Source: an uncultured Thiotrichales bacterium (lineage in GTDB: Bacteria > Pseudomonadota > Gammaproteobacteria > PS1 > Pseudothioglobaceae). From it: 24,000 nucleotides of DNA. This document shows, piece by piece, positions 2,639-18,871 of the stretch. The notes beneath the pieces are model-generated. The model had not been told where the DNA came from. It saw only the letters and a program-made list of their open reading frames with translations, and did no database searches. The stretch's first letter is position 1. Every line of letters begins with the position of its first letter. The stretch is taken from NCBI GenBank assembly GCA_964508055.1, contig CAZDRI010000007.1, positions 20,510-44,509 on the forward strand, in the 5' to 3' direction. The position numbers and the translations under genes are program-made.

Positions 2639-4896
<2,258 letters not shown>

Positions 4897-4973
4897 ATAT
4901 GGGAACCTTTATTATTAACTAATTTCTTAAAAACTTGCAAAAATTTATAATAATTGTTAGAAATTACCATACA

Positions 4974-5831: not shown

Positions 5832-7048
5832 TATCTTGTCTCCCTATTTCTAAACAGGTTTCTTAAATTTGGTCTTTTATTTTGTGTTTCTTGGCTTTGT
5901 TGATTTTTTTGGACTGGCTCTGCTACTTTTTTATTGTCTTCATTACTAGTTGATAAAATCTTATCTAAAGGTAAATACATTAAACTATTACTATTAGAAT
6001 CCATAATAATCTTAGTTGTTCTCATAAACACCTGTTCTAAAGTCTCTAAATAAAGGCGTTGTTTAGTAACTGCTGGAGCCTTTTCAAACTCTACTCTAAT
6101 TTTGTCAAACCTTTGAGCCTCACCTTCAGCCTTTGAGATAACTTGAGATTTATAAGCTTTTGCTTCTTCAATAATTCTAGCGCTTAATCCTCTTGCTTTT
6201 GGGAGGATATCATTAGAATAAGCTTCAGCTTCATTAATAAGTCTTTCTTTATCCTCTCTGGCTTTTACTGCATCAGAAAATGCTGATTGCACTTGCTCTG
6301 GTGGTTGAGCGTCTTGCATATTAACAGTTGTTATCTGCAGACCTGTTTTATATAAATTTAAAAGTTTTTGCCCTTCTTCTGCAATTTGCTGCGCTATTTC
6401 TGTTCTACCTTCAGTTAAGATAAAATCCATATTGTTTTTCCCAATAACTTGACGAATAACACTTTCAGATACTTGCCTGAGTGTTAAATCTGGATTAACA
6501 ACATTAAATAAATACGCTACTGCATCATTTATTCTATATTGCACTGCAAATTTAGCATCAATAATATTTTCATCTTTAGTAAGCATTAAAGACTCTGAAC
6601 CAATGTTACCTGTTACTCTTACATTTTTTGCATTTAAACCACTACGAAAACCAATGTCAGCAGTTCTTATTTGAGCAACATTAACTGTTGTTACGGTTTC
6701 TATAGGATAAGGTAAGTGCCAATGTGGACCTTCAGAAGTTATTTCACTAAATTTACCAAATCTTAACTCTACTCCTTTTTCAGCAGGACCTACAATATAT
6801 ACTCCAAATGCCAGCCAAACAATAACAGCAATAACTAAAAAAACACCTATACCTTTGAATCTTCTAGCATTGTTTTTACCATTATCATCACCACTACCAT
6901 TACCTCCATCAATAACATTCTTATTAATATCTTTAAATAAATTATCAAATTTAGACTTTAACTTTCTTATTATTTCATCTAACTCTGGTGGTGTTTGGTT
7001 TTGTCCACTACCCCAAGGTTTTTGATTGTTTGGGTCATTCCAAGCCAT
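5831..7048 (-). CDS. hflK: Protease modulator HflK (SPFH/band-7 membrane protein)
   Basis: 405-aa ORF. Typical HflK N-terminus 'MAWNDPNNQKPWG...PPELDEIIRKL', one TM helix, an SPFH domain and a charged C-terminal tail. Confidence 0.92.
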   Translation of the reverse strand: MAWNDPNNQKPWGSGQNQTPPELDEIIRKLKSKFDNLFKDINKNVIDGGNGSGDDNGKNNARRFKGIGVFLVIAVIVWLAFGVYIVGPAEKGVELRFGKFSEITSEGPHWHLPYPIETVTTVNVAQIRTADIGFRSGLNAKNVRVTGNIGSESLMLTKDENIIDAKFAVQYRINDAVAYLFNVVNPDLTLRQVSESVIRQVIGKNNMDFILTEGRTEIAQQIAEEGQKLLNLYKTGLQITTVNMQDAQPPEQVQSAFSDAVKAREDKERLINEAEAYSNDILPKARGLSARIIEEAKAYKSQVISKAEGEAQRFDKIRVEFEKAPAVTKQRLYLETLEQVFMRTTKIIMDSNSNSLMYLPLDKILSTSNEDNKKVAEPVQKNQQSQETQNKRPNLRNLFRNRETR

Positions 7049-7123
7049 CTAATACTCCAAAAAACTTATAATTCTACTTGAATAAGTATTTTTACAAAAA
7101 ATATCTTAAAAACAAAAAAACTA

Positions 7124-7153
7124 ATTTTATTAAAAATTATCATATTTGTTCAA
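7124..7153 (-). promoter_or_regulatory. Candidate sigma70-type promoter for the hflK-hflC-hisZ-purA-rnr unit
   Basis: On the minus strand, TTGAAC (7153-7148), an 18-nt spacer, then TAAAAT (7129-7124), about 75 nt upstream of the hflK ATG. GGAG Shine-Dalgarno 6 nt before the ATG. AT-rich background makes chance matches likely. Confidence 0.25.
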
Positions 7154-7230
7154 GTTGGACTATATACAAAAATTGTTTATTTTACATTGAGTAACAAAAA
7201 TTATGCTGTTTTTATTAATATGAGTATATA

Positions 7231-8028
7231 TTAATCTAATAGCAAGGCATCATCTTCAATTTTTTCACCTTTTAACTGGGTGAAATAATCTAATAAGTCA
7301 TTTACTGTTTTGCCTTTTTTCTCTTCTTTATTTAAATCAAAGGCTATCCTACCTTGATGCAGCATAATCATCCTATTACCATACTCTAATGCTTGTTTCA
7401 TACTATGAGTAATCATAATAGTAGTAAGAGAAAACTCTTCAATAATTTCTTGAGTTAACCGCATTACAAATTCTTGAGTTTTAGGGTCTAATGCTGCAGT
7501 GTGTTCATCTAATAATAATATTTTCATAGGACTTAGCGTTGCCATTAATAGACTCACAGCTTGTCTTTGTCCACCTGATAAAAGACCTATGATATCTTCT
7601 AATCTATTTTCTAAGCCTAAATCTAATCTCTTAAGTATTTTCTTAAATTCTTCTTTATTATCGCTATCAACACCACTTTTGAAATAAGAACGACTTTTAC
7701 CTCGCTTGGCAGCTAATGCCATATTTTCTTCAATAGTAAGTCTATCGCAGGTGCCAGCTAAAGGATCTTGAAATACTCTGCCCATAACCCTTGATCTTTC
7801 ATGGACAGCTAATTTAGAAATATCCTTGCCGTCTATTTCAATCTTTCCGCTGTGTAGTGGTACATAACCTGCAATAGCATTTAAAAGAGTTGATTTACCA
7901 GCCCCGTTACTACCAATAACTGTTAGAAATTCGCCATTTTTAATATCTAAATCAACTCCATTTAAAGCAAAGTTCTCTAATGGGGTATTTAGTCCAAAAA
8001 CTACTTTTATATTTGAAAATTTAACCAT
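7231..8028 (-). CDS. ABC transporter ATP-binding protein (COG1101-type, partner of the COG4120 permease)
   Basis: 265-aa ORF. Walker A 'GSNGAGKST', signature 'LSGGQRQ', Walker B 'ILLLDEHTAALD'. TAATG junction with the permease gene. Confidence 0.92.
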   Translation of the reverse strand: MVKFSNIKVVFGLNTPLENFALNGVDLDIKNGEFLTVIGSNGAGKSTLLNAIAGYVPLHSGKIEIDGKDISKLAVHERSRVMGRVFQDPLAGTCDRLTIEENMALAAKRGKSRSYFKSGVDSDNKEEFKKILKRLDLGLENRLEDIIGLLSGGQRQAVSLLMATLSPMKILLLDEHTAALDPKTQEFVMRLTQEIIEEFSLTTIMITHSMKQALEYGNRMIMLHQGRIAFDLNKEEKKGKTVNDLLDYFTQLKGEKIEDDALLLD

Positions 8029-8930
8029 TATTTAGCTGCACCTTTTTTTATATTTGGAAGCACAATTGCTAATGTTACTAATATTGCTGTTAATAAATTT
8101 AAATCTTGTGATTTAAACCCTAAAAAGTCTAATTCCAAAGCAAAAGTAATAGCAAGTCTATAAACAACCGCTCCTACTACACAAGCAACCAATGCTCTGA
8201 ATACTGTCCTAGTATTTACCAAAGCCTCACCACCTATTACAGAAGCTAAACCTAACACAATAGTACCAACACCCATTGTTACATCAGCTATACCTTGTGA
8301 TTGGGCATATAAACTACCTGCTAAAGCTACCAAAGCATTTGATATAGACATACCTAATAGTATTGAAATATTGCTATTTATCCCTTGGGCATTTGCCATT
8401 TTATTGTTCATACCAACCGCACGCATAGCAAGACCAGATTCTGAATATAAGAAAAGTTTTAATAAGTAAAAAACAATAATTATTATCGCTCCAAAAATAA
8501 ACACTAAAGCAAAATAATCTGGTATGCCAGTAATATATAATATAGATTTTATAAATTCTAACATTGGGTCAAATATTGTAACCTCACCAAGTAGTGCAAT
8601 ATTTGGCCCACCCATTATTCTTAAATTAATAGAATAAAGAGCTATCATAACCAAAATTGAAGCAAGCAAATTTAATATTTTCATACGAACACATAAATAT
8701 GCCGTTACAAACCCAGCCATTGCCCCTGCAACAATAGATATTAATGTTGCAATCCAAGGATTAAAGCCCGATACAATTAATATTGCTGTTACTGCAGCAC
8801 CTAATGGGAAAGAACCATCTATTGTTAAATCTGGAAAATCTAATACTCTAAAAGATATATAAACAGCAAAAGCTATTAAAGAGAACAGGAGTCCTAATTC
8901 AAAAGCTCCTGCTAATGCAAAACCTGACAC
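8028..8930 (-). CDS. ABC transporter permease (COG4120-type, branched-chain-permease-like fold)
   Basis: 300-aa highly hydrophobic ORF with multiple TM helices, located between the binding-protein gene and the ATPase gene. Confidence 0.85.
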   Translation of the reverse strand: MSGFALAGAFELGLLFSLIAFAVYISFRVLDFPDLTIDGSFPLGAAVTAILIVSGFNPWIATLISIVAGAMAGFVTAYLCVRMKILNLLASILVMIALYSINLRIMGGPNIALLGEVTIFDPMLEFIKSILYITGIPDYFALVFIFGAIIIIVFYLLKLFLYSESGLAMRAVGMNNKMANAQGINSNISILLGMSISNALVALAGSLYAQSQGIADVTMGVGTIVLGLASVIGGEALVNTRTVFRALVACVVGAVVYRLAITFALELDFLGFKSQDLNLLTAILVTLAIVLPNIKKGAAK

Positions 8931-8932
8931 GC

Positions 8933-9886
8933 TTATTCTATTACTTTTTTAGATAAAGTCTGTAATATTTTTGGTATTTCAATACCCATTTTTTTAGCAG
9001 AATTTAAGTTTACAAAAAGTTCAGATTTATTCACTCCCTGCACATCAATACTACCTGGATTTTTACCATTTAGTATAGCAGCAACAATCTTACCTGTTTG
9101 AATTCCTACATCATAATAATTAAATCCAAGAGCTGCTACTGCACCTCTTTCTACACTTGAAGTATCACCTGCAAAAACTGGTATATTGCTATCAATACCT
9201 ACTTTTACTACTGACTCAAAAGCACTAACAATTGTATTATCAGTTGGAACATAAATAGCTTCTACCTTTCCAACTAATGATTTGGCTGCAGTTAATACAT
9301 CTGCTGTTTTAACTGCAACAGATTTAATAATTTTTAAATCATACTGCTCAGCAAATTTATCAACTAATTTAATAATTGATACCGAATTAGTTTCACCAGC
9401 ATTATATAAAACTCCCAAAGACTTAATATTAGGCATTATCGCTTTTATTAAATCAAGATGCTTATCAATAGGTGTTAAATCGGATACTCCAGTAGTATTA
9501 CCTCCAGGTTTTTTTAAACTTGGAACAATTTTTGCAGCAACAGGGTCTGTCACAGCAGAAAATACATGTGGTATTGATTTAGTTTGTGCCGATATAGCCT
9601 GAGCTGAAGGAGTAGCTATACTTATAATAGCATCAGGTTTTTTACCAACAAACTTTTTAGCAATAGATATTGTATTTGGGATATTGCCTTGGGCACTTTC
9701 AAATTCTACTTTTAAATTTTTACCTGCAACAAAACCAACCTCTTTTAAATAATCAATAACACCATTTTTTGTAGCATCTAAAGCTGGATGCTCAACAATT
9801 TGGGTAATTGCTATAAATTTATCTTGAGCAAATGTTGAAAAAGCAAATAATAAAATACTTAAAATTGCAATTTTAATTCTTTTCAT
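8933..9886 (-). CDS. ABC transporter substrate-binding protein (ABC_sub_bind / COG2984 type), secreted
   Basis: 317-aa ORF. Signal peptide 'MKRIKIAILSILLFAFSTFA|QD'. 'ITQIVEHPALD' and 'TPSAQA' are typical of this family. It is the first gene of the three-gene transporter operon. Confidence 0.85.
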   Translation of the reverse strand: MKRIKIAILSILLFAFSTFAQDKFIAITQIVEHPALDATKNGVIDYLKEVGFVAGKNLKVEFESAQGNIPNTISIAKKFVGKKPDAIISIATPSAQAISAQTKSIPHVFSAVTDPVAAKIVPSLKKPGGNTTGVSDLTPIDKHLDLIKAIMPNIKSLGVLYNAGETNSVSIIKLVDKFAEQYDLKIIKSVAVKTADVLTAAKSLVGKVEAIYVPTDNTIVSAFESVVKVGIDSNIPVFAGDTSSVERGAVAALGFNYYDVGIQTGKIVAAILNGKNPGSIDVQGVNKSELFVNLNSAKKMGIEIPKILQTLSKKVIE

Positions 9887-9936
9887 ATATCAATCCCCTA
9901 TATAAAAATTTAAAAATCATATGGATGAACTTTAAA

Positions 9937-9966
9937 ATTATACTGAACTAAATAACTATTAGTTAA
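9937..9966 (-). promoter_or_regulatory. Candidate promoter of the ABC transporter operon
   Basis: Minus-strand TATAAT (9942-9937) about 50 nt upstream of the ATG. Weak -35 TTAACT (9966-9961) with an 18-nt spacer. GGGGA Shine-Dalgarno before the ATG. Low specificity in AT-rich DNA. Confidence 0.25.
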
Positions 9967-10184
9967 ATAAATAAAGGTATTGATTAGTTAAACTCCTAAA
10001 TAATATTTGAGAAACAACTTAGTAAAAATACGAATTTAATATACTAAGAAAGTCTTTATTATTGATACAAAAATAAAACAAAAAACCGCCGCCTTGTTTT
10101 TTTTATAATGAGAATTAACAGTTAACAATAATTAAACTTTATTTAAGTTATAATTTAAACACAAGACATTGTAGAAATTTTAAA

Positions 10185-11411
10185 ATGATAGATAAAATAA
10201 TCAGTTCAAGCCCTAAATCTATTAGCCTTATAGAACATTCCAAATTGCTAACAACAACAGCCGAGTCCTTATTAGCTCAGCATAATACTTTGGCGGAAAT
10301 AAATAATATAAAAAGAGAGTTAATAAAAAAAAATGATGAATCGCTAATATTTATTTTATTAGCGTTAAAAATTGCTAAATCTAAAATTTTTATCAATAGA
10401 ATAAAAAGACCTCTTAGCATCTCAGTAGTTTTTGCTGTTTATAAAGAGCATAATAGGATAAGAAAAATTAGTGAGCATCCTCATGGTGAAGATTTTCTCA
10501 ACATTAAAATGGAACAACTTAAATGGTTGTTTGCTGATAATAAAAATATTGACTGGCAGCTGATTGTGGTTGATGATGGTTGTCCTGAAAATAGTGGCAA
10601 AATAGCTCAAAGTATTATAGATAAAAATAATTTTGCAGATAAAGCCCAAGTCCTATATCTAAAAGATGCCATAAAACAAAAATTACCACCAGTTCAAGGT
10701 TTAAAAAGTGTTGATGATAGTAAAAAAGGCGGGGCAATCGCTTATGGAATGTGGCATAGTGTTCAACAAAATAGCTCAAAAAGACATATTGTAATTTATA
10801 CTGATGCTGATCTCTCCACCCATTTAGGACAGATAGGACTTTTAGCTAATCCTATTTTAAACCAAGGCAAACTAGCTGTAACCGGCTCACGACGCAGTTG
10901 GAACTCAATAGTAATAAAAAAAGAAAACAGAAATAAAAGAGGTAAACTTTTTATTTATTTGTGGAAAAGACTACTACCCTGTCTGCATAATATTGTTGAT
11001 ACTCAATGTGGCTTTAAGGGCTTTCGTGCTAACATAATATCAGACTTGACCAAAGATTTAATTGAGCGTCAATTCGCCTTTGATATTGAGTTATTACTTA
11101 AAACAAATCTAATAAAACATAATGGCGTTGATAAAATTGGTATTGCTTGGATTGATAGTGAGGAAGAGTCAACTACCAAAGAATTACAATCCTATTTACC
11201 AATGTTAAAAGCAATAGTAAAGATGTATAAAAAATACTGCATTAAAAACCCAAACTCAGATGAATTTGCCGCTTTTGTAGAATCGTTAACTGATGAAGAA
11301 TTTAATAATATTTTAGATAATGTACCAAAACCTATTTTGAAGAAAAAGCCTTTTAAGTTTACCAAATACGATAAAGTCAAAGTTGCCGATTTAGTTGAGC
11401 ATAAAAATTAA
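10185..11411 (+). CDS. GT2-family glycosyltransferase, ALG5 / polyprenyl-phosphate hexosyltransferase-like, with N- and C-terminal extensions
   Basis: 408-aa ORF. GT-A motifs 'LIVVDDGCPENSG', 'IVIYTDADLS' (DxD), 'DTQCGFKGF' and 'AFDIELL'. About 75 aa precede the catalytic core and about 80 aa follow it. Confidence 0.8.
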   Translation: MIDKIISSSPKSISLIEHSKLLTTTAESLLAQHNTLAEINNIKRELIKKNDESLIFILLALKIAKSKIFINRIKRPLSISVVFAVYKEHNRIRKISEHPHGEDFLNIKMEQLKWLFADNKNIDWQLIVVDDGCPENSGKIAQSIIDKNNFADKAQVLYLKDAIKQKLPPVQGLKSVDDSKKGGAIAYGMWHSVQQNSSKRHIVIYTDADLSTHLGQIGLLANPILNQGKLAVTGSRRSWNSIVIKKENRNKRGKLFIYLWKRLLPCLHNIVDTQCGFKGFRANIISDLTKDLIERQFAFDIELLLKTNLIKHNGVDKIGIAWIDSEEESTTKELQSYLPMLKAIVKMYKKYCIKNPNSDEFAAFVESLTDEEFNNILDNVPKPILKKKPFKFTKYDKVKVADLVEHKN

Positions 11412-11412
11412 T

Positions 11413-12885
11413 TTAGATTTTAAAAATATTATCAATAATTCTTGTTGGAGTGATTGCATTAGTATGGTATTTTTTAGCTAAACTCTCGGCTGTAGTGCCT
11501 AAGATATAAGCTCCTGATATTGCTGCATCAGCTAAGTTTAAGCCTTGGGCAGAAAAAGCTGTGATTATCCCAGCTAAAACATCACCAGAACCTCCAGTTG
11601 CTAAGCCATCATTACCATTTTTGATAATTACTGTTTTATCTTGGTTCATAAAAATTGAGCTAGAACTTTTTAAGAGGATATTTATTTTATATCTAGCTAC
11701 AAACATTTGTAAAACTTCAATAATATTAGTAATCAACTCATTGTTTGTAATATTGTTTAATCTAGCAAATTCGCCAATATGCGGTGTTAAAAGAACATTT
11801 TTATTTCTAAGACTATTTAATAATTTTAAATTATTTGCTAGTATATTAATTGCATCAGCATCAATTATTAGAGGTTTATCGCCCCAGTTTTTTAGAAAAT
11901 ATTTTAATAATATATCTTTTTTAGCAGTCAAACCTGGCCCTATTAATAAAACATCTTTAGTTAAAATATCTTTATCAATGTCTTTAGGATAATCACTAAT
12001 ACTATTTGTTATTACCTCAGTTAAACTACTTGAATATATATCATCTAAGCCTTGCGGATGATAAAGATAAATCAAACCTGCACCAGAGTGAAGACAAGCT
12101 TTACTTGCTAATATAGCTGCTCCTGATAACTCTTTTGAGCCTGCAATAATAGCGGCTTTTCCATAATCAGTTTTATGAGCACAAATATTTCTTGTTGGTA
12201 ATAAAACATTATCATAATTAGCTAATATTATTTTTGGAGGTAATTTTTTATATACTTTTTTTGGAATGCCAATATCAATAACTTTGGTCTTGCCACAATA
12301 ATATTTACCTAAACCTAAAAAATGTCCGTATTTGTAAGCTGCCATAGTCAAGGTGTAGTGAGCTTTTACGCATAAATCACTCTCACCATTAGCGACATTT
12401 AATCCACTTGGTATATCTAAAGCTACTACTTTTTTTGCAGTGTTATTTATAATTTTTATAATATTTGAAAATGGTGGTTTTATATTCCCTTTTACCCCAA
12501 TACCAAAAATTGCATCAACTACTAAATCGTAATCTATAAAGCCATTAGTCACTGTAGTTCTAACTTTAATAGAATTTTCTATGCATTCATTAAAACTATT
12601 TTTAGTCTCAGGACTAAATTTTGCTTTATCTCCAATAAAAAATGTATCAACATAAAACCCAAATTCCTTTAACAATCTTGCAACTACAAAACCATCACCA
12701 CCATTATTGCCGTGTGAACAAATGACAGCTACTTTAGCAGCAAGATTATTTTTTAGTATTTTGTTTTTAATATAGTTTGCTGAACCAGAGCCTGCATTTT
12801 CCATGAGGGTTTGAGCTGAGATTGATAAATTTTCAATACTAAATTTATCAATAGCATACATTTCATTTTTACTTACTATTTGCAT
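11413..12885 (-). CDS. nnr: Bifunctional NAD(P)H-hydrate repair enzyme (epimerase + ADP-dependent dehydratase), YjeF
   Basis: 490-aa ORF. YjeF_N motif 'CSHGNNGGDGFVVAR' and C-terminal carbohydrate-kinase motif 'GGSGDVLAGII'. Convergent with the GT2 gene, 1 nt apart. Confidence 0.9.
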   Translation of the reverse strand: MQIVSKNEMYAIDKFSIENLSISAQTLMENAGSGSANYIKNKILKNNLAAKVAVICSHGNNGGDGFVVARLLKEFGFYVDTFFIGDKAKFSPETKNSFNECIENSIKVRTTVTNGFIDYDLVVDAIFGIGVKGNIKPPFSNIIKIINNTAKKVVALDIPSGLNVANGESDLCVKAHYTLTMAAYKYGHFLGLGKYYCGKTKVIDIGIPKKVYKKLPPKIILANYDNVLLPTRNICAHKTDYGKAAIIAGSKELSGAAILASKACLHSGAGLIYLYHPQGLDDIYSSSLTEVITNSISDYPKDIDKDILTKDVLLIGPGLTAKKDILLKYFLKNWGDKPLIIDADAINILANNLKLLNSLRNKNVLLTPHIGEFARLNNITNNELITNIIEVLQMFVARYKINILLKSSSSIFMNQDKTVIIKNGNDGLATGGSGDVLAGIITAFSAQGLNLADAAISGAYILGTTAESLAKKYHTNAITPTRIIDNIFKI

Positions 12886-12938
12886 TTCTATAAATTAGTC
12901 TAATATATAATGATAATTATATTATGTAGTTAGAATTT
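12886..12938. promoter_or_regulatory. 53-bp divergent intergenic region, presumed to hold the promoters for nnr and the eight-gene operon
   Basis: This is the only non-coding DNA upstream of the operon. It contains a perfect TATAAT at 12906-12911, 27 nt before the ATG at 12939. TTGCAT at 12880-12885 is a possible -35, but the 20-nt spacing to that TATAAT is poor. Confidence 0.3.
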
Positions 12939-13628
12939 ATGAGTAACAAATTATTAAAAACACTGCTAATAATTATAATAATTAGCGTTATTGGTGCTTT
13001 TTTTATTTTTGACTTAGATCAATATGCTACTCTTGATTATATTAAAAGCAAACAAAGCCTATTAACAAACTATTACAACGATAATACTTTATTAGTGCTT
13101 AGCTTTTTTGGGATATTATATGTAGTAGTAACTGCATTTTCCCTACCTATTGCTGCAGGTTTAACCTTACTTGGTGGTGCTTTATTTGGATTTATACCTG
13201 CTCTTATTATCGTATCATTTGCTAGTACTATTGGTGCTAGCTGTGCTTTTTTAATGGTAAGGTTTTTATTACATGATTCTATTCAAAAAAAATACGGTAA
13301 ATATCTCAAAAAGTTAAATGCAGGATTTAAAAAAGAAGGAACATTTTATTTATTTGCACTGCGCTTAGTGCCAATATTTCCGTTCTTTGTAATAAATATA
13401 TTAACTGCATTATTGCCTATTAGGTTAAGTGTATTCTACATAATAAGTCAAATAGGTATGTTGCCAGGCACAGCAGTATATGTGTTTGCTGGGACAGAGA
13501 TTGGTAAGATAAATTCTCTATCTGATATTTTATCTCCAACATTATTATTAGCTTTTGCCCTGCTTGGGATTTTTCCAATAATTGCAAAAAAGACATTATA
13601 TTTACTTAGGAAAAAATCAATAAAATGA
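12939..13628 (+). CDS. DedA / TVP38-TMEM64 (SNARE-associated) family membrane protein
   Basis: 229-aa ORF with multiple TM helices. Family motif 'FALRLVPIFPFFVINILTA'. ATGA overlap with the next ORF. Confidence 0.85.
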   Translation: MSNKLLKTLLIIIIISVIGAFFIFDLDQYATLDYIKSKQSLLTNYYNDNTLLVLSFFGILYVVVTAFSLPIAAGLTLLGGALFGFIPALIIVSFASTIGASCAFLMVRFLLHDSIQKKYGKYLKKLNAGFKKEGTFYLFALRLVPIFPFFVINILTALLPIRLSVFYIISQIGMLPGTAVYVFAGTEIGKINSLSDILSPTLLLAFALLGIFPIIAKKTLYLLRKKSIK

Positions 13629-13894
13629 AAAAATATGACTATAACTTAGTGATAATAGGAGCAGGCTCGGTTGGATTAGTAGTAGCATATGTAGCAGCTA
13701 TAGTTAAGGCAAAAGTTGCTTTGATTGAAAAACATAAAATGGGTGGTGATTATCTTAATAAAATACTTGCAACAATACACATCTATCCCACACTTACAGA
13801 AGCAAATAAATTTGTTGCAGCTGAATGGAAAAAGAAACACCCACCAGTATTTATTTTAAAATTGTTAGAAAAATTCCATAAACTAAGAAGATGA
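13625..13894 (+). pseudogene. Collapsed remnant (89 codons) of a class-I FAD-dependent pyridine-nucleotide-disulfide oxidoreductase
   Basis: The N-terminal FAD-binding Rossmann start 'YDYNLVIIGAGSVGLVVAYVAAIVKAKVALIEKHKMGGDYLN' runs straight into a C-terminal dimerisation-domain end, 'ILATIHIYPTLTEANKFVAAEWKKKH...'. The redox-active CxxxxC, the NAD(P)H domain and the central domain are absent. Y43 sits where the first redox Cys is expected (GGDCLN). Confidence 0.7.
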
Positions 13895-14844
13895 CCACAA
13901 CATTTGTTCAAAATTTAAGTAATCATAAGCTATATATAAAAAGAAATAGCATTTCAACTCTACAAATAAACATTGGCAAAAGGTGTAACCAAGCATGCCA
14001 TCACTGTCATGTAGAAGCTGGACCTAAAAGAGAAGAAAATATGGACTTAAAAACTATCAGTAGAATATTAGAGTTAGTTAATAAAACTCCAAGTATTAAA
14101 ACTGTTGATATAACCGGAGGTGCTCCTGAATTAAATCCACATTTCAGGCACTTTGTAGAAAATTCAAAAAAGCTAAATAAAAATATCATAGATAGATGTA
14201 ATCTAACAATTCTTTTAGAAAAAGGACAAGAGGATACAGCTTTATTTCTAGCAAAAAATAATGTTGAGATAATTGCATCACTGCCTTGTTATGAAGAAGA
14301 TAATGTAAATAAGCAACGGGGCAGGTATGTTTTTAATAAAAGTATTAAAGCCTTAAAAATATTAAATAGTATTGGTTATGGTAAAAAAGACAGTGATTTA
14401 ATTCTAAACTTAGTATACAACCCTGTAGGCGAGCACCTACCACCTGAACAACTTCAATTAGAACTAGATTATAAAAAAAGCCTGAAAGATAAATATAACA
14501 TAGAATTTAATAGTCTTTTTACTATTACTAATATGCCTATTAATCGTTATGCTCATAGTCTGAAACGCAATAATAAATATGATAATTATATGAAATTACT
14601 AATGGATAACTTTAATACTCAAGCAATTGATAATGTTATGTGTAAAAATCTTGTGTCCATAGCTTGGGATGGGGTTATATATGATTGTGATTTTAACCAA
14701 ATGTTAGACCTTAGCCTAAAGTCAAAAACTACAATATGGAATATCAAAGATTTTAATGATATTAGCAAGAACATTACCCTAGCAGATCATTGCTATGCTT
14801 GCACTGCTGGTTCAGGTAGCTCATGTACAGGAGTTTTAGTGTAA
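13891..14844 (+). CDS. arsS: ArsS-type radical SAM / Cys-rich-domain enzyme (arsenosugar biosynthesis radical SAM protein family, Cys variant)
   Basis: 317-aa ORF. Radical-SAM cluster motif C32-NQA-C36-HH-C39 within 'IGKRCNQACHHCHVEAGP'. C-terminal Cys-rich domain 'YDCDFNQ' and 'HCYACTAGSGSSCTG'. Adjacent to ArsM and the two associated transferase families. Confidence 0.85.
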   Translation: MTTTFVQNLSNHKLYIKRNSISTLQINIGKRCNQACHHCHVEAGPKREENMDLKTISRILELVNKTPSIKTVDITGGAPELNPHFRHFVENSKKLNKNIIDRCNLTILLEKGQEDTALFLAKNNVEIIASLPCYEEDNVNKQRGRYVFNKSIKALKILNSIGYGKKDSDLILNLVYNPVGEHLPPEQLQLELDYKKSLKDKYNIEFNSLFTITNMPINRYAHSLKRNNKYDNYMKLLMDNFNTQAIDNVMCKNLVSIAWDGVIYDCDFNQMLDLSLKSKTTIWNIKDFNDISKNITLADHCYACTAGSGSSCTGVLV

Positions 14845-15644
14845 TGTTTAATGAAATAGAATTAAGATTAGGGTCTTTTTTAGTAATGTTTGCATTAATA
14901 GCTATTATTGAAATTATTATCCCAAAACGAAAATTATCTGTAAAAAAATCTACTCGTTGGTTTAGAAATCTTTCAATAATATTACTTGATAGCCTTGCAG
15001 TAAGATTATTAATACCATTTACAACTGTAGGAGTAGCTGTTTATGCCCAAACAAATGCAATAGGTATTTTGCATCATTTAGCTATGCCACCATATTTACA
15101 TATAGTTTTTGCAATAATAATTCTTGATTTATTGATTTATATACAACATGTGGTTTTCCATTATGTGCCTATTTTATGGAGATTACACAAAATACATCAT
15201 ATAGACCAAGATTACGATGTAACTACCGGCTTAAGATTTCACCCAATAGAGATAATACTTTCTGTTTTAATAAAGTGCTTAGCAATATTAGCATTTGGTG
15301 TGCCATATCAAGGCGTTATTATTTTTGAAATTTTATTAAATTTAACTGCTATGTTTAATCACGGTAATATAAATATCCCTAAAAAATTAGATTCCTTCAT
15401 CCGTTTATTTATTGTTACTCCAGATATGCATAGAGTCCATCATTCAGTAATTAAAACAGAAACTAATTCTAACTTTGGTTTTAATTTATCAGTCTGGGAC
15501 AAAGTTTTTAAAACCTATAAAAAAAGCCCTGCTAAAGGTCATAACAATATGACTATAGGTCTTAAAGAATATCAAAACCCAGCTAAAACTAATTTATTAG
15601 AAATGCTATTAATACCATTTTATAACAAGGATAAAAATGAATAA
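14844..15644 (+). CDS. Fatty-acid hydroxylase / sterol desaturase superfamily integral membrane di-iron protein
   Basis: His boxes 'HVVFH', 'HKIHH' and 'HRVHH' with 4-5 TM helices. The start is placed at the ATG forming a TAATG junction with arsS (14842-14846). An in-frame upstream ATG at 14823 (ORF-track start) is the alternative. Confidence 0.8.
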   Translation: MFNEIELRLGSFLVMFALIAIIEIIIPKRKLSVKKSTRWFRNLSIILLDSLAVRLLIPFTTVGVAVYAQTNAIGILHHLAMPPYLHIVFAIIILDLLIYIQHVVFHYVPILWRLHKIHHIDQDYDVTTGLRFHPIEIILSVLIKCLAILAFGVPYQGVIIFEILLNLTAMFNHGNINIPKKLDSFIRLFIVTPDMHRVHHSVIKTETNSNFGFNLSVWDKVFKTYKKSPAKGHNNMTIGLKEYQNPAKTNLLEMLLIPFYNKDKNE

Positions 15645-16680
15645 AATAACTCAAAATGTTAAAGAATATTATGGTGAGATTTTAACTAATAAAGATGATT
15701 TAAAAACATCTGCTTGTTGTAATGTTGAAAACTCAAATCCTAATTTAGCAAAATATCTAGCTAATATTCATAGTGAAATAAAAAATAAATTTTATGGCTG
15801 CGGCTCACCTATTCCCAGTGCTTTAAAAGGCAAAACTGTGCTTGATTTAGGTTCTGGAACTGGTATGGATACCTATATTGTATCTCAGCTAGTAGGAAGT
15901 AAAGGTAAGGTTATAGGTATTGATATGACAGAAAATCAACTAAAAATAGCCAATAAATATGTTGATTATCATATGAATAAATTTGGTTACGAAAAACCAA
16001 ATATAAATTTTATTAAAGCTTATATTGAAGATTTAAAAGCTGTAGGCATTGAAAATAACTCAATAGATGTAGTGATTTCTAATTGTGTGATAAATTTAGC
16101 AGAAAGTAAAAACAAGGTATTTAATGAAATATTTAGAATATTAAAGCCAGGAGGAGAATTATATTTCTCTGATGTTTTTACTGATAGAAGAGTGCCAGAG
16201 CATTTAATTAATGATAAATTACTTTATGGTGAATGCTTAAGTGGGGCTTTATATATTGAAGATTTTAGAAGATTATTACAAAAAGCTGGTTTTTTAGATT
16301 ATCTAGTAGTAACTAAAAATGTTATTGATATTAAAGATAAAAGAATTAAAGAATTAGTAAGAGGTATAAAATTTTATTCTATTACTATTAGGACTTTTAA
16401 ATGTGATTTTGAAGATGCAAGTGAAGATTACGGGCATAAGGCAACTTATTTAGGAACTATTAATGATATGAGTGCTAATTTTACTTTAGATGATAAACAT
16501 AAGTTTTATAAAAATAAACCTTTAGCAATTAATGGCAATATTGCAAAAATACTTACTTTATCTAGATATAGTAAATATTTCAATATAGAAGGTGATTTTT
16601 CTACTCATTATGGTGCTTTTGAAAATAAAAATACTGATAGCAGTAGTAGCGAATGTGTAAGTTCTAACTGCTGTTCATAG
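15637..16680 (+). CDS. arsM: Arsenite S-adenosylmethionine methyltransferase (ArsM/AS3MT type)
   Basis: 347-aa ORF. SAM motif I 'VLDLGSGTGMD'. Cysteines in the ArsM pattern: C27/C28 ('SACC'), C55 ('YGCGSP'), C150 ('SNCVINL') and C200 ('GECLSGA'). Cys-rich C-terminal tail 'ECVSSNCCS'. 8-nt overlap with the upstream gene. Confidence 0.85.
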   Translation: MNKITQNVKEYYGEILTNKDDLKTSACCNVENSNPNLAKYLANIHSEIKNKFYGCGSPIPSALKGKTVLDLGSGTGMDTYIVSQLVGSKGKVIGIDMTENQLKIANKYVDYHMNKFGYEKPNINFIKAYIEDLKAVGIENNSIDVVISNCVINLAESKNKVFNEIFRILKPGGELYFSDVFTDRRVPEHLINDKLLYGECLSGALYIEDFRRLLQKAGFLDYLVVTKNVIDIKDKRIKELVRGIKFYSITIRTFKCDFEDASEDYGHKATYLGTINDMSANFTLDDKHKFYKNKPLAINGNIAKILTLSRYSKYFNIEGDFSTHYGAFENKNTDSSSSECVSSNCCS

Positions 16681-16689
16681 CTAGATATT

Positions 16690-17535
16690 ATGTTAGCAAT
16701 AATAGGTGGTACAGGTATATATAATATTGAAGGTATAAAAACTATTAAAAAAATAGCTATAGATACCCCTTTCGGTAAACCTTCAAGCAGTATAATAAAA
16801 GCAAATTATAAAGATAAAACTATACTTTTCCTACCACGTCATGGTGAAAATCATCAATACTTACCTCATGAGATAAATTACCAAGCTAATATATTTGCTT
16901 TAAAAAAATTAGGAGCAAAACAAATTTTAGGTTTTTCTGCTGCTGGTAGCCTTAGAGAAAATATCCATCCTGGAGATTTTGTTGTCCCAGCACAATATAT
17001 TGACTTCCTAAAATCTAATAGAAAACGAACTTTTTTTGGCGATGGTATTGCTGCCCATATATCCACTGCAATCCCTACTTGTGAAAATATTACCTCGTGG
17101 GCTAAAGATAAAGCTCAAACTATGAATATTAAATTACACACTAATAAAACTTATGTTTGTGTAGATGGTCCAAGACTTGGGACTAAAGCAGAAAGTAATT
17201 TTTTTCGCTCTATTGGTTGTGATGTAGTTGGTATGAGTAATGTGCCTGAAGTTTATTTAGCAAGAGAAGCACAAATTTGCTACGCTACAATATGCATAAT
17301 AACTGACTATGATTGCTGGATGGAAGATGAAAAATATCATGTAAGTGTAAAAGATGTCATCAGTCGCTATGGCGAAAGTATTAATAAAGCTAAAAAACTA
17401 TTATTAGCACTATTAGAAACCGATATTGCAAAAATTGATGAAGATTATCGTAAATCCCTAACTGATGCCATACTTACACCTTATGAATATTTAACAAAAG
17501 ATAAAAAAGATTTATTAGCTGTGCTTACTAAATGA
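16690..17535 (+). CDS. mtnP: MTAP-family (S-methyl-5'-thioadenosine-type) purine nucleoside phosphorylase
   Basis: 281-aa ORF with 'IIGGTGIY', 'FLPRHGENH', 'EINYQANIFALKKLG' and 'VVGMSNVPEVYLAREA'. It starts 9 nt after arsM and has an ATGA overlap with the next gene. Confidence 0.85.
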   Translation: MLAIIGGTGIYNIEGIKTIKKIAIDTPFGKPSSSIIKANYKDKTILFLPRHGENHQYLPHEINYQANIFALKKLGAKQILGFSAAGSLRENIHPGDFVVPAQYIDFLKSNRKRTFFGDGIAAHISTAIPTCENITSWAKDKAQTMNIKLHTNKTYVCVDGPRLGTKAESNFFRSIGCDVVGMSNVPEVYLAREAQICYATICIITDYDCWMEDEKYHVSVKDVISRYGESINKAKKLLLALLETDIAKIDEDYRKSLTDAILTPYEYLTKDKKDLLAVLTK

Positions 17536-18209
17536 TTAAACTTTCAATAATCATCCCATTAGCTAAAGATGATTTAACTTACAAAAAATTAATTCCTGAT
17601 TTAAAAAAATTAGCTAAAAATAATGAAATAATTTTCGTAAGCACTAAAGATAATAAAGAAAATAATAATATTTTAAAAATAAAAAATATCAAACTATTAA
17701 TAAGCAAGGCTGGTAGAGCAAAGTCTATGAATTATGGGGCTAACAAAGCAAGTGGTGAATACTTGTGGTTTTTACATGCTGATTCTAAATTTACAGAGAA
17801 TACTGTTAGCGAATTATTAAAAGCAATGCGTTATTACCCTGATTGTCTTATATATTTCCAACTTGGATTTTTAAATGATGCTATTAAATTAATAAAGATA
17901 AATGAATGGGGAGCTAATTTTAGGTCTAAAGTATTTAAAATACCTTTTGGTGATCAAGGCTTTTGTATTAAGAAAAGTCTATTTAAAAAAGCTGGTTCTT
18001 ATAATGAAAGTCTGAGCTATGGCGAAGACCATGTCTTTGTATGGCAAGTAAGGCAAAATAATATTAAATTACATGCTATTAACACTAAACTTTACACCAG
18101 TAGTAGAAAATATAAAAAACATGGTTGGCTCAAAACTACTTTTATACACCAATATTTATGGTTAAAACAAGCATACCCAGAATGGAAAAAACTACGAAAA
18201 ATAAAATAA
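17532..18209 (+). CDS. Small GT2-like glycosyltransferase of the radical-SAM/selenodomain-associated (arsenosugar-associated) type
   Basis: 225-aa ORF. GT-A start 'LSIIIPLAKD', acidic motif 'FLHADS', 'FGDQGFCIKKSLF' and 'GEDHVF'. By size and context it fits what I recall as TIGR04283. Confidence 0.75.
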   Translation: MIKLSIIIPLAKDDLTYKKLIPDLKKLAKNNEIIFVSTKDNKENNNILKIKNIKLLISKAGRAKSMNYGANKASGEYLWFLHADSKFTENTVSELLKAMRYYPDCLIYFQLGFLNDAIKLIKINEWGANFRSKVFKIPFGDQGFCIKKSLFKKAGSYNESLSYGEDHVFVWQVRQNNIKLHAINTKLYTSSRKYKKHGWLKTTFIHQYLWLKQAYPEWKKLRKIK

Positions 18210-18871
18210 ATATTGCTTTGGCTACTTTTGTAAAAACTCCTAATCTAAGTCCTATTAAGACAAGATTAGCAAAAGATATAAGTCATAAAAAGGCTATTAA
18301 ATTTTATGAACTAAGCTTAAATGCAATAAAAGAATTAATAAAAGAAATAATAGACTTAAAGATAGATTCTTACTGGGCTATTGCTGAAAAAAACGCCCTA
18401 CAATTAGCTATATGGTCTGATAATAAAACTATATGGACTGGTGAAGGGAACTTAGGAGAAAGATTAAATAATGTATATTGTTATCTGAAGAAAAAATATA
18501 AATTTGTGATTTTAATTGGTTCTGATAGCCCTCAATTAGACAAAGCAACTATTAAAAAAACAATATTAAAATTAAATGAAAATAATTGTATTATTGGCAA
18601 AAGTAAAGATGGCGGATTTTATCTTTTTGCATCTGGAGTAGATATTAAAAAAAGAGTTTTTACTAATGTAACTTATAGTGAAAATACAACTTTGCTTCAA
18701 TTAACAAGAAATCTAAAACAGCATAATATTAATATTAAATTTTTAAGCGAAAAAGTTGATGTGGATACCGCTTCTGATATAGGTTATTTATTAAGCGAAT
18801 TAAAAAACTTAACTCATATTAGCAACAAACAAAAAATATTATCCAAATGGCTGAAAAACTTAGACCTTTGA
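18182..18871 (+). CDS. DUF2064 transferase-like protein (CofC/MobA-like nucleotide-diphospho-sugar-transferase fold), radical-SAM/selenodomain-associated type
   Basis: 'IALATFVKTPNLSPIKTRLA' matches the family N-terminus (FAK.P..G.VKTRL). Also 'IGSDSPQL' and 'DGGFYLF'. The start is set at ATG 18182 (MEKTTKNKINIAL...). The ORF track's longest ORF begins at 18125, which would overlap the upstream gene by 85 nt. Confidence 0.75.
   Translation: MEKTTKNKINIALATFVKTPNLSPIKTRLAKDISHKKAIKFYELSLNAIKELIKEIIDLKIDSYWAIAEKNALQLAIWSDNKTIWTGEGNLGERLNNVYCYLKKKYKFVILIGSDSPQLDKATIKKTILKLNENNCIIGKSKDGGFYLFASGVDIKKRVFTNVTYSENTTLLQLTRNLKQHNINIKFLSEKVDVDTASDIGYLLSELKNLTHISNKQKILSKWLKNLDL

What the first reader, a model, noticed from the sequence alone, without database searches (positions are those of the whole stretch)
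16690..17535. Operon-embedded MTAP homologue as candidate for the missing adenine-removal step
Seen in sequence: a complete MTAP-family ORF starts 9 nt after arsM and is ATGA-coupled to the GT2 gene. Established knowledge: MTAP enzymes phosphorolyse 5'-substituted 5'-deoxyadenosines to adenine plus the 5-substituted ribose-1-phosphate. Inference: the ArsS product is a 5'-arsenical 5'-deoxyadenosine, so this enzyme could convert it to 5-deoxy-5-dimethylarsinoyl-ribose-1-phosphate, an activated donor for the downstream transferases. The less interesting alternative is salvage of 5'-deoxyadenosine or MTA made by the SAM enzymes.
Basis: inference. Interest (0 to 1): 0.65.

Follow-up and report, generated by a model that had tools for sequence, protein, structure and literature searches.

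The report
MTAP enzyme inside an arsenosugar operon
A gene of the methylthioadenosine-phosphorylase family sits inside an arsenic-sugar biosynthesis operon. Because it recurs next to the same genes in many unrelated bacteria, it is the best candidate for the unidentified step that removes adenine from the arsenic-bearing nucleoside, but no enzyme assay exists yet.

Summary
ORF 16690-17535 (+, 281 aa) is an intact MTAP-family phosphorylase. It starts 9 nt after an ArsM-type gene and overlaps the downstream GT2 gene by ATGA, inside an eight-gene, translationally coupled operon: VTT, oxidoreductase remnant, ArsS, fatty-acid hydroxylase, ArsM, MTAP, GT2 (TIGR04283), DUF2064 (TIGR04282).

Linkage is conserved but partial.
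- 10 of 80 ArsS loci from different species carry an MTAP/PNP gene (about 0.4-0.8 expected by chance).
- 9 of those 10 lie in the 35 loci that also carry GT2/DUF2064, against 1 of 45 without (p=0.002).
- 18 of 23 well-flanked relatives of this MTAP sit next to GT2/DUF2064.
- Gene order varies, and three separate PNP-family lineages were recruited.

The window's enzyme belongs to a distinct subfamily (F177L, S178G, L240Y). Its catalytic, phosphate-binding and 5'-pocket residues are ordinary.

Best reading, by inference: it phosphorolyses the ArsS product to adenine plus 5-dimethylarsinoyl-ribose-1-phosphate. The CofC-like DUF2064 protein then probably nucleotidylates this for the inverting GT2, which fits beta-ribosides.

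Not excluded: plain MTA salvage. Some subfamily members are unlinked or lie near speE. Whether the genome has a second salvage enzyme could not be tested.

The parts
12939..13628 (+). VTT/DedA-family membrane protein, first gene of the operon
   Evidence: Pfam VTT_dom, E=3e-22. Found with ArsS or the oxidoreductase in many related loci.
13625..13894 (+). 89-aa remnant of a MerA-like pyridine-nucleotide-disulfide oxidoreductase (in-frame internal deletion)
   Evidence: The N-terminal 44 aa and C-terminal 45 aa align to the two ends of the 475-aa proteins of L003, L004 and L084. The redox CxxxxC motif is lost.
13891..14844 (+). ArsS, the radical-SAM enzyme that adenosylates dimethylarsenite
   Evidence: NCBIfam TIGR04167, 447.9 bits (cut-off 300). 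Pfam Radical_SAM plus DUF3641.
14844..15644 (+). Fatty-acid-hydroxylase-family membrane di-iron enzyme. The longest ORF starts at 14823; the public gene call starts at 14844.
   Evidence: Pfam FA_hydroxylase, E=5.5e-27. Gene call. TAATG junction with ArsS.
15637..16680 (+). ArsM-type As(III) SAM methyltransferase
   Evidence: NCBIfam arsenite methyltransferase models at 202, 184 and 115 bits, all below cut-off. The four conserved Cys positions are present.
16690..17535 (+). MTAP-family nucleoside phosphorylase of the 'L177/G178' subfamily: the finding itself
17532..18209 (+). GT2 glycosyltransferase of family TIGR04283, ATGA-coupled to the MTAP gene
   Evidence: NCBIfam TIGR04283, 183.2 bits (cut-off 182). 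A family profile matches nucleotide-sugar GT-A enzymes in the PDB. H82-x-D84 and E165-D166 are invariant. It is directly downstream of MTAP in 30 loci.
18158..18871 (+). DUF2064 / TIGR04282 protein, a CofC-like putative nucleotidyltransferase. The longest ORF starts at TTG 18125.
   Evidence: NCBIfam TIGR04282, 135.1 bits (cut-off 134). Pfam DUF2064 plus CofC. A family profile hits 3cgx (2e-44) and the CofC/FbiD guanylyltransferases 2i5e (5e-5), 6bwg (4e-4) and 7p97 (0.02). Gene call.

Best explanation
Shown: the ORF encodes an intact trimeric-PNP-fold phosphorylase of the MTAP family. It belongs to a distinct subfamily that is usually encoded next to the GT2 (TIGR04283) / DUF2064 (TIGR04282) pair, and often next to ArsS.

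Inferred mechanism:
1. ArsM makes dimethylarsenite.
2. ArsS attaches the 5'-deoxyadenosyl group, giving 5'-deoxy-5'-dimethylarsinoyl-adenosine.
3. This phosphorylase cleaves the N-glycosidic bond with phosphate. The products are adenine and 5-deoxy-5-dimethylarsinoyl-alpha-D-ribose-1-phosphate.

Further inference, less certain:
4. The CofC-like DUF2064 protein nucleotidylates that sugar-1-phosphate to an NDP-sugar.
5. The inverting GT2 transfers the sugar to an acceptor, giving the beta-ribofuranoside linkage found in arsenosugars.

The enzyme may also keep ordinary MTA / 5'-deoxyadenosine activity.
For: 1. The catalytic equipment is intact. Mapped onto human MTAP, the phosphate-site residues (T18, R60, H61, T93 as Ser, A94, T197 as Ser), M196, the adenine-specific D220/D222 and the 5' pocket (H65, P69, V233, V236, L237 as Ile, L279) are all present. 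The human sequence used was verified against 1cb0. The fold is confirmed.

2. ArsS-anchored sample. Of 80 ArsS loci from different species, 10 carry an MTAP/PNP gene within 10 kb. About 0.4-0.8 are expected if a genome has one such gene; binomial p is 1e-11 to 1e-8.

3. The association is with the glycosylation module. MTAP occurs in 9 of 35 ArsS loci that have GT2/DUF2064 and in 1 of 45 without (Fisher p=0.002). Among loci with at least 5 kb on both sides the counts are 6 of 21 against 0 of 24. There is no association with ArsM (p=0.72).

4. MTAP-anchored sample. Among subfamily members from metagenomes with at least 3 kb on both sides, 18 of 23 are linked to GT2/DUF2064, 13 to ArsS, and 2 to a second ArsS-like radical-SAM family.

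5. Linkage survives many gene orders. MTAP lies upstream of ArsS, between ArsS and GT2, after DUF2064, or divergent. GT2 is the immediate downstream gene in 30 loci. The flanks of the clusters are not syntenic.

6. Three separate PNP-family lineages occupy this position: the L177/G178 subfamily, a canonical-type MTAP clade (L053, L064, L075), and a bona fide PNP in a Chryseolinea MAG (L079).

7. No MtnN-like or other nucleosidase family recurs near ArsS.

8. Chemistry, from established knowledge. ArsS consumes the adenosyl moiety and ArsM yields S-adenosylhomocysteine, so neither releases an MTAP substrate stoichiometrically. MTAP gives an alpha-ribose-1-phosphate (abstract of PMC13316717). 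GT2 enzymes invert. Arsenosugars are beta-ribofuranosides.

9. DUF2064 resembles CofC/FbiD, which nucleotidylate phosphate monoesters. The GT2 keeps GT-A donor and base motifs.

10. Precedent: the radical-SAM adenosylase HpnH is followed by the PNP homologue HpnG, which removes adenine from adenosylhopane (PMC13459092).
Against: - There are no biochemical data.
- Only 10 of 80 ArsS loci, and 9 of 35 ArsS loci with GT2/DUF2064, have a linked phosphorylase. It is therefore dispensable in cis. The Prochlorococcus ArsS locus (L051) has none of the three downstream genes.
- Members of the same subfamily stand alone in unrelated contexts (L093, L121, L136). Others lie about 6 kb from speE/speD (L002, L090), or next to a polyamine aminopropyltransferase with no radical-SAM gene (L128, L131). 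This fits ordinary MTA salvage.
- The 5' pocket is not visibly remodelled, and linked and unlinked subfamily members share the same signature residues.
- The protein passes the MTAP equivalog cut-off.
- NJ bootstrap support for the subfamily is moderate (59 of 100).
- The loci are phylogenetically related and many contigs are truncated, so the p-values are approximate.
- The nucleotidyltransferase step rests on weak profile matches (E of 5e-5 to 0.02).
Confidence: 0.5

Rival explanations
1. Pure housekeeping salvage. The gene is the organism's ordinary MTA / 5'-deoxyadenosine phosphorylase. It sits in the operon only because that operon is rich in SAM-consuming enzymes, or by genomic accident in a streamlined genome. 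It takes no part in making the arsenical product.
For: It passes the MTAP equivalog cut-off and keeps every canonical catalytic and 5'-pocket residue. Subfamily members occur unlinked (L093, L121, L136), near speE/speD (L002, L090), or next to an aminopropyltransferase (L128, L131). Most ArsS loci lack a linked phosphorylase. Radical-SAM enzymes do release some 5'-deoxyadenosine by abortive cleavage (established knowledge).
Against: The association is with GT2/DUF2064 and not with the SAM enzymes: 9 of 35 against 1 of 45, and no association with ArsM. Linkage is retained through many rearrangements, and three different PNP lineages were recruited. 18 of 23 well-flanked subfamily members are cluster-linked. 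ArsS and ArsM do not produce MTAP substrates stoichiometrically (established knowledge).
Confidence: 0.28
2. The MTAP-DUF2064-GT2 trio works on a non-arsenical 5'-substituted adenosine, such as MTA, 5'-deoxyadenosine or the product of another radical-SAM enzyme. The glycoside made by the cluster would then carry 5-methylthio- or 5-deoxy-ribose, and ArsS/ArsM would be a side branch.
For: The trio occurs with a different radical-SAM family and no ArsM (L001, L086, L088, L107, L111, L135). It also occurs with no radical-SAM gene but with a polyamine aminopropyltransferase (L128, L131). ArsM is near only 23 of 80 ArsS genes. Mycobacteria build a 5-methylthio-pentofuranose cap from an MTA-derived donor using a GT2-type synthase (MtxS/MtxT, PMC8780516; the involvement of MTAP there is from my own recollection).
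Against: In the window, the trio is translationally coupled to ArsM and ArsS in one operon. Thirteen of 23 well-flanked relatives have a bona fide ArsS nearby. The alternative radical-SAM keeps an ArsS-like C-terminal Cys motif and may do the same chemistry.
Confidence: 0.12
3. Arsenate handling by arsenolysis. The phosphorylase uses arsenate in place of phosphate and so supports arsenate reduction, as reported in vitro for mammalian PNP. This would feed As(III) to ArsM, perhaps compensating for the deleted oxidoreductase.
For: PNP reduces arsenate in vitro with dithiols (review PMC12608789). The operon's oxidoreductase is reduced to a remnant in this window.
Against: In relatives the MTAP co-occurs with an intact oxidoreductase (L003, L004, L084). 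The linkage tracks the glycosyltransferase pair, not ArsM. The in vivo relevance of PNP-mediated arsenate reduction is doubted even in mammals.
Confidence: 0.03

Closest known systems
Canonical 5'-methylthioadenosine phosphorylase (human MTAP 1cb0; Sulfolobus MTAP 2a8y/1v4n; metagenomic RsfP 4glf)
   Same: Same fold (TM 0.81-0.86), 36-44% identity, and the same phosphate, ribose, Asp220/Asp222 and 5'-pocket residues. It passes TIGR01694.
   Different: It belongs to a subfamily with F113Y, M140T, F177L, S178G, V203F, L240Y and R267. Only 8 of 150 family representatives have L177/G178, against 118 with F/S. It scores at the edge of the equivalog cut-off, and some subfamily members fall below it. 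It is usually encoded with GT2/DUF2064/ArsS rather than alone.
HpnG, the PNP homologue that removes adenine from adenosylhopane after the radical-SAM adenosylase HpnH
   Same: Same pathway logic. A radical-SAM enzyme attaches a 5'-deoxyadenosyl group, and a PNP_UDP_1-superfamily enzyme encoded with the pathway strips the adenine (PMC13459092).
   Different: A different branch of the superfamily: no HpnG model matched. The substrate is a lipid rather than an arsenical. For HpnG the phosphorylated product has not been observed either.
MqnB futalosine hydrolase, and MTAN acting on aminofutalosine after the radical-SAM enzyme MqnE (own knowledge; not checked in the library)
   Same: A second case of radical-SAM adenosylation followed by base removal by a PNP_UDP_1-superfamily enzyme.
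   Different: Those enzymes are hydrolases of the MTAN branch. Here the phosphate-binding residues are kept, which predicts phosphorolysis and an activated sugar-1-phosphate product.
Methylthioxylose cap pathway of mycobacterial lipoarabinomannan (MtxS Rv0539, MtxT Rv0541c)
   Same: A 5-substituted pentofuranose derived from a SAM by-product is turned into a glycosyl donor and transferred, with a GT2-type enzyme in the locus (PMC8780516).
   Different: The donor there is a polyprenyl-phosphate sugar, and the substituent is methylthio rather than dimethylarsinoyl. The role of the neighbouring MTAP (Rv0535) is my recollection and was not verified here.
CofC/FbiD 2-phospho-L-lactate guanylyltransferase (model for the DUF2064 partner)
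   Same: Profile similarity (2i5e 5e-5, 6bwg 4e-4, 7p97 0.02). The chemistry is nucleotidyl transfer onto a phosphate monoester, as needed to turn a sugar-1-phosphate into an NDP-sugar.
   Different: Distant similarity only. The closest structure is the uncharacterised 3cgx. The substrate and nucleotide are unknown.

Membership tests
MTAP (NCBIfam TIGR01694, EC 2.4.2.28) | Scores above the curated equivalog cut-off | tested here: met
   288 bits against 274.85. The margin is small: subfamily members L002 (274.2) and L093 (271.5) fall just below, while canonical-type L053, L064 and L075 score 314-321.
MTAP (NCBIfam TIGR01694, EC 2.4.2.28) | Trimeric-PNP alpha/beta fold | tested here: met
   AlphaFold model pLDDT 82.9. 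Foldseek TM 0.81-0.86 to 1v4n, 4glf and 1sd2. The oligomeric state was not tested.
MTAP (NCBIfam TIGR01694, EC 2.4.2.28) | Phosphate-binding residues (human T18, R60, H61, T93, A94, T197) | tested here: met
   T8, R50, H51, S83, A84 and S183 in the window protein. The two Thr-to-Ser changes are conservative.
MTAP (NCBIfam TIGR01694, EC 2.4.2.28) | 6-aminopurine-specifying Asp220 / Asp222 | tested here: met
   D206 and D208 in 'TDYDCW'. They are invariant across the subfamily.
MTAP (NCBIfam TIGR01694, EC 2.4.2.28) | Base-site Phe177-Ser178 | tested here: not met
   L163-G164 ('GPRLGTKAES'). 117 of 120 close homologues carry L-G. Of 150 family representatives, 118 carry F-S and 8 carry L-G.
MTAP (NCBIfam TIGR01694, EC 2.4.2.28) | Hydrophobic 5'-alkylthio pocket (H65, P69, V233, V236, L237, L279') | tested here: met
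   H55, P59, V220, V223, I224 and L262. The neighbouring helix position L240 is Tyr in the whole subfamily.
MTAP (NCBIfam TIGR01694, EC 2.4.2.28) | Phosphorolysis of MTA to adenine plus MTR-1-P | not testable with these tools
   This needs an enzyme assay.
ArsS-type 'arsenosugar' gene cluster (TIGR04167 + TIGR04283 + TIGR04282) | All three marker families present above cut-off in one operon | tested here: met
   447.9 against 300, 183.2 against 182, and 135.1 against 134. The genes overlap or are 9 nt apart.
ArsS-type 'arsenosugar' gene cluster (TIGR04167 + TIGR04283 + TIGR04282) | An As(III) methyltransferase that supplies dimethylarsenite | tested here: inconclusive
   The ORF is below every NCBIfam ArsM cut-off (best 201.9 against 263) but keeps the four conserved Cys positions.
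ArsS-type 'arsenosugar' gene cluster (TIGR04167 + TIGR04283 + TIGR04282) | The cluster actually produces an arsenosugar | not testable with these tools
   The names of TIGR04282 and TIGR04283 rest on genome context. No experimental paper on them was found.
HpnG-type post-adenosylation phosphorylase | PNP_UDP_1-superfamily enzyme encoded beside a radical-SAM adenosylating enzyme | tested here: met
   This shows that it works like HpnG, not that it is a member of that family.
HpnG-type post-adenosylation phosphorylase | Orthology to HpnG | tested here: not met
   No HpnG model appears among the 11 NCBIfam matches. All the top matches are MTAP models.

The most novel reading that the evidence does not exclude
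The MTAP / CofC-like DUF2064 / GT2 trio is a portable three-enzyme module. It converts 5'-substituted 5'-deoxyadenosines made from SAM into nucleotide-activated 5-substituted ribofuranose donors, and then into beta-ribosides. The substrates could come from ArsS, from a second ArsS-like radical-SAM family, or from aminopropyl transfer. This would be a previously undescribed route from SAM-derived nucleosides to nucleotide sugars, with arsenosugars as only one of its products.
Probability: 0.25. Interest if true: 0.8.

Novelty: new variant of a known kind. Interest (0 to 1): 0.6.

Why it matters
By my own knowledge, arsenosugars are the main organoarsenicals of marine algae and of seafood-derived exposure. 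The proposed pathway (methylation, adenosylation, loss of adenine, glycosidation) goes back to Edmonds and Francesconi. In the literature searched here, only ArsM and ArsS have enzymes assigned.

This locus and its relatives offer concrete, cloneable candidates for all the remaining steps. Together they suggest a stereochemically coherent order: phosphorylase, then nucleotidyltransferase, then inverting GT2. A handful of enzyme assays could settle it.

If correct, it also adds a third example of a rule: radical-SAM adenosylation is followed by a PNP-superfamily enzyme. It would further show that such clusters occur in streamlined, low-GC uncultured proteobacteria, not only in cyanobacteria and algae.

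Tried and rejected
1. A remodelled 5' pocket as a specificity signature. Rejected: H65, P69, V233, V236, L237 and L279 equivalents are ordinary. The subfamily's changes lie elsewhere and are shared by linked and unlinked members.

2. V233A/V236A in the second linked clade (L053, L064, L075) as a pocket enlargement. This rests on only three related sequences, and Ala at position 233 is common in the family (26 of 150). No weight was given to it.

3. Position 230 (His in the subfamily). The alignment of the 225-232 loop shifts between runs, so it was dropped.

4. Other adenine-removing enzymes near ArsS. An MtnN seed and unbiased clustering of neighbours found none. The recurrent families are a sigma factor, SDR, PHO4, TetR and ABC components, among others.

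5. Promoter and terminator scans are uninformative in this AT-rich DNA: 42 hits against 42.6 expected.

6. A single-sequence AlphaFold model of the GT2 was unusable (pLDDT 33.7). A profile search of the PDB was used instead.

7. Testing for a second housekeeping mtnP/mtnN was not possible.

8. Synteny of the window's flanks with other cluster-bearing loci: none found.

9. Literature. Eight of the nine full-text searches looked for a paper connecting MTAP, nucleoside phosphorylase, TIGR04282/04283 or DUF2064 with arsenosugar synthesis, and none was found. Most of the arsenic literature is in subscription journals that are not held, so prior mention cannot be excluded.

10. The Angala 2017 paper on methylthioxylose could not be opened.
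Full report
OBSERVATION

The ORF at 16690-17535 (+) is present as described. The upstream ArsM-type ORF stops at 16680, 9 nt follow, and the MTAP ATG is at 16690. The MTAP stop overlaps the GT2 start as ATGA at 17532-17535.

The gene lies in a run of eight co-directional genes (12939-18871):
- a VTT/DedA membrane protein;
- an 89-aa oxidoreductase remnant;
- ArsS;
- a fatty-acid-hydroxylase-family protein;
- ArsM;
- MTAP;
- a GT2 of family TIGR04283;
- a DUF2064 protein of family TIGR04282.

The junctions are ATGA, ATGA, TAATG, an 8-nt overlap, a 9-nt gap, ATGA and a 52-nt overlap.

GC content is a uniform 28-32% across the window, so the operon is not compositionally foreign. The flanking genes are rnr, purA, hisZ, hflCK, prs, ispE, orn and trpD. 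The best named PurA relative is Candidatus Thioglobus at 69% identity. This points to an uncultured low-GC gammaproteobacterium.

WHAT THE PROTEIN IS

It matches the following:
- Pfam PNP_UDP_1, E=7.5e-43;
- NCBIfam TIGR01694 (MTAP), 288 bits, just above the 274.85 cut-off;
- solved MTAP structures at E=1e-66 to 1e-57.

A 33-sequence AlphaFold model (pLDDT 82.9) superposes on MTAP structures with TM 0.81-0.86.

I mapped the protein onto human MTAP. The following human residues have these equivalents in the window protein:
- the phosphate site: T18, R60, H61 and A94 kept, T93 and T197 as Ser;
- M196;
- the adenine-specifying D220/D222;
- the 5'-alkylthio pocket: H65, P69, V233, V236 and L279 kept, L237 as Ile.

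It should therefore be an active, phosphate-dependent 6-aminopurine nucleoside phosphorylase. This is an inference from conserved residues.

A DISTINCT SUBFAMILY

The protein carries L163-G164 where canonical MTAPs have F177-S178. Of its 120 closest database relatives (58-71% identity, nearly all 281 aa), 117 share this pair.

Among 150 representatives of the whole family at 50% clustering, 118 have F-S and 8 have L-G. Six of those eight are among the seven best-scoring hits to the window protein; the other two are short fragments.

The subfamily has further near-invariant differences: F113Y, M140T/S, V203F, L240Y and R267. Its members score at or just below the MTAP equivalog cut-off, while canonical-type enzymes score 314-321 bits.

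An NJ tree recovers the subfamily in 59 of 100 bootstraps, with one F-G revertant nested inside.

The changed residues lie in the base site and on the helix that lines the 5' pocket. In canonical MTAPs the serine at position 178 probably helps anchor a conserved water on adenine. This is my own recollection; PMC5147791 names 'S118' in the Schistosoma enzyme, which I take to be a misprint for S188, the equivalent of human S178. The pocket-contact residues themselves are ordinary.

IS LINKAGE TO ArsS CONSERVED?

Two independent samples were taken.

(a) ArsS-anchored sample. A scan of one genome per GTDB species with an ArsS alignment returned 80 loci. Genes were assigned with iterated HMMs.
- GT2/DUF2064 lies near ArsS in 35 loci, ArsM in 23, and an MTAP/PNP gene in 10.
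- With one such gene per genome, under one locus in 80 is expected (binomial p of 1e-11 to 1e-8).
- Nine of the ten are among the 35 loci with GT2/DUF2064. One, on a 6-kb contig, is among the 45 without (Fisher p=0.002).
- There is no association with ArsM (p=0.72).
- Restricted to loci with at least 5 kb on both sides: 6 of 21 against 0 of 24.

(b) MTAP-anchored sample. A metagenome scan with the window protein returned 77 loci.
- Among subfamily members with at least 3 kb on both sides, 18 of 23 sit next to GT2/DUF2064.
- Thirteen also have bona fide ArsS, and 2 have a second radical-SAM family.

Further points:
- Gene order varies widely, and GT2 is the immediate downstream gene in 30 loci.
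- The window's own flanking genes have no counterparts beside the cluster in any other locus.
- Public gene calls for three named relatives were checked. Formosimonas has the same order as the window but without ArsM. Spiribacter insolitus has MTAP-GT2-DUF2064 divergent from oxidoreductase-VTT-radical SAM. A Desulfotignum MAG has the gene alone, 6 kb from speE/speD.

INDEPENDENT RECRUITMENT

Besides the L/G subfamily, two other lineages occupy the same position:
- A canonical-type MTAP clade lies beside ArsS in a Burkholderiaceae MAG, Microbulbifer rhizosphaerae and Caldimonas manganoxidans (bootstrap 76 of 100).
- A bona fide PNP (PRK08202, 336 bits) sits between ArsS and DUF2064-GT2 in a Chryseolinea MAG.

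No MtnN-like protein or other nucleosidase family recurs near ArsS.

MECHANISM

ArsS has been shown to adenosylate dimethylarsenite, giving 5'-deoxy-5'-dimethylarsinoyl-adenosine (Cheng et al. 2021, as cited in PMC13598754 and PMC12159101).

Neither SAM enzyme of the operon releases an MTAP substrate stoichiometrically. ArsS incorporates the adenosyl group, and ArsM releases S-adenosylhomocysteine (established knowledge). The one abundant 5'-substituted 5'-deoxyadenosine made by this operon is therefore the ArsS product.

Phosphorolysis would give adenine plus the alpha-1-phosphate of 5-dimethylarsinoyl-ribose.

- A profile of the DUF2064 family matches the uncharacterised 3cgx. More weakly, it matches the CofC/FbiD guanylyltransferases, which nucleotidylate phosphate monoesters.
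- A profile of the GT2 family matches nucleotide-sugar-dependent GT-A enzymes. It keeps an H-x-D donor motif and an E-D motif.

The most economical order is phosphorylase, then nucleotidyltransferase, then glycosyltransferase. The stereochemistry fits: a beta-nucleoside gives an alpha-1-phosphate, then an alpha-NDP-sugar, and the inverting GT2 gives a beta-riboside, as in natural arsenosugars (established knowledge). These last two steps are inference only.

The HpnH/HpnG pair of hopanoid biosynthesis is a documented precedent for a radical-SAM adenosylation followed by a PNP homologue (PMC13459092). MqnE followed by MqnB or MTAN is another (own knowledge).

WHAT SPEAKS AGAINST IT

- Most ArsS loci have no linked phosphorylase. 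Some, such as the Prochlorococcus locus L051, have none of the downstream genes.
- Subfamily members occur alone in unrelated contexts (L093, L121, L136), or about 6 kb from speE (L002, L090).
- In L128 and L131 the MTAP-GT2-DUF2064 trio lies beside a polyamine aminopropyltransferase and an AMP nucleosidase, with no radical-SAM gene within 10 kb.
- The subfamily therefore probably retains MTA activity, and simple salvage cannot be excluded.
- Whether the source genome has another mtnP/mtnN could not be examined.
- The statistics ignore phylogenetic non-independence and contig truncation.

COMPARISON AND NOVELTY

The protein is a member of the MTAP family by score, fold and catalytic residues, but it fails the canonical F177/S178 feature. 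It works like HpnG without being its orthologue.

Eight full-text searches found no paper linking MTAP, nucleoside phosphorylases, TIGR04282/04283 or DUF2064 to arsenosugar synthesis. The library lacks most subscription journals, so this is weak evidence of novelty.

I rate it a new variant of a known kind: a known enzyme family and a known pathway logic, applied to an unassigned step, with a plausible and testable three-enzyme continuation.

VERDICT

- Observation: confirmed.
- Interpretation: partly supported. Its comparative-genomic predictions largely hold. The 'altered 5' pocket' prediction fails. The 'direct donor' idea should be replaced by nucleotidylation via DUF2064.
- Confidence that the enzyme acts on the ArsS product in vivo: about 0.5.
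- Interest: 0.6.

Noticed in passing
window 13625-13894 (+): The 89-aa ORF between the VTT gene and ArsS is an in-frame internal-deletion remnant of the 475-aa MerA-like pyridine-nucleotide-disulfide oxidoreductase that is intact in relatives (L003, L004, L084). The junction falls at a repeated 'LN', and the redox-active CxxxxC motif is gone.
   Followed up: yes
L001 6769-7761 (-); also L086, L088, L107, L111, L126, L135: A second radical-SAM family replaces ArsS beside MTAP-GT2-DUF2064, for example in Spiribacter insolitus. It is 22% identical to ArsS and scores only 64.6 bits on TIGR04167 (cut-off 300), yet it has an ArsS-like C-terminal Cys motif. Its function is unknown.
   Followed up: partly
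L079 4583-5407 (+) (Chryseolinea sp. MAG): A bona fide purine-nucleoside phosphorylase (PRK08202, 336 bits), not an MTAP, sits between ArsS and DUF2064-GT2. This is an independent recruitment of the same superfamily.
   Followed up: partly
L128 and L131, about 4800-15700: The MTAP-GT2-DUF2064 trio occurs with no radical-SAM gene within 10 kb. It lies between carotenoid genes (crtY, a polyprenyl synthase, a crtI-crtB fusion) and a 530-aa polyamine aminopropyltransferase plus an AMP nucleosidase.
   Followed up: partly
L042 10048-11175; L102 2491-3453 and 5834-6982; L007 12242-13291: Phosphate-related genes recur next to ArsS clusters: a PHO4 transporter, phosphate-selective porin O/P, and a phosphonate-binding protein. 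This is consistent with arsenate/phosphate uptake or a phosphate-stress link.
   Followed up: no
window 15637-16680 (+): The ArsM-type methyltransferase scores below every NCBIfam ArsM cut-off: 201.9 against 263, 183.6 against 500, and 115 against 400 for the 'arsenosugar ArsM' model. It nevertheless keeps all four conserved cysteine positions, so it is a divergent ArsM lineage.
   Followed up: partly
window 10185-11411 (+): A separate 408-aa GT2 glycosyltransferase lies upstream of the operon. The convergent nnrD/nnrE gene (11413-12885, -) separates it from the operon. No NCBIfam model matches it, and any relation to the operon is unknown.
   Followed up: no
window 14844-15644 (+) and L003, L004, L008, L084, L087, L100: A fatty-acid-hydroxylase-family membrane enzyme (weakly OlsE-like, 93 bits) is part of the cluster in the window's closest relatives. 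Together with the VTT/DedA protein, this hints that the final product or acceptor is a membrane lipid.
   Followed up: no
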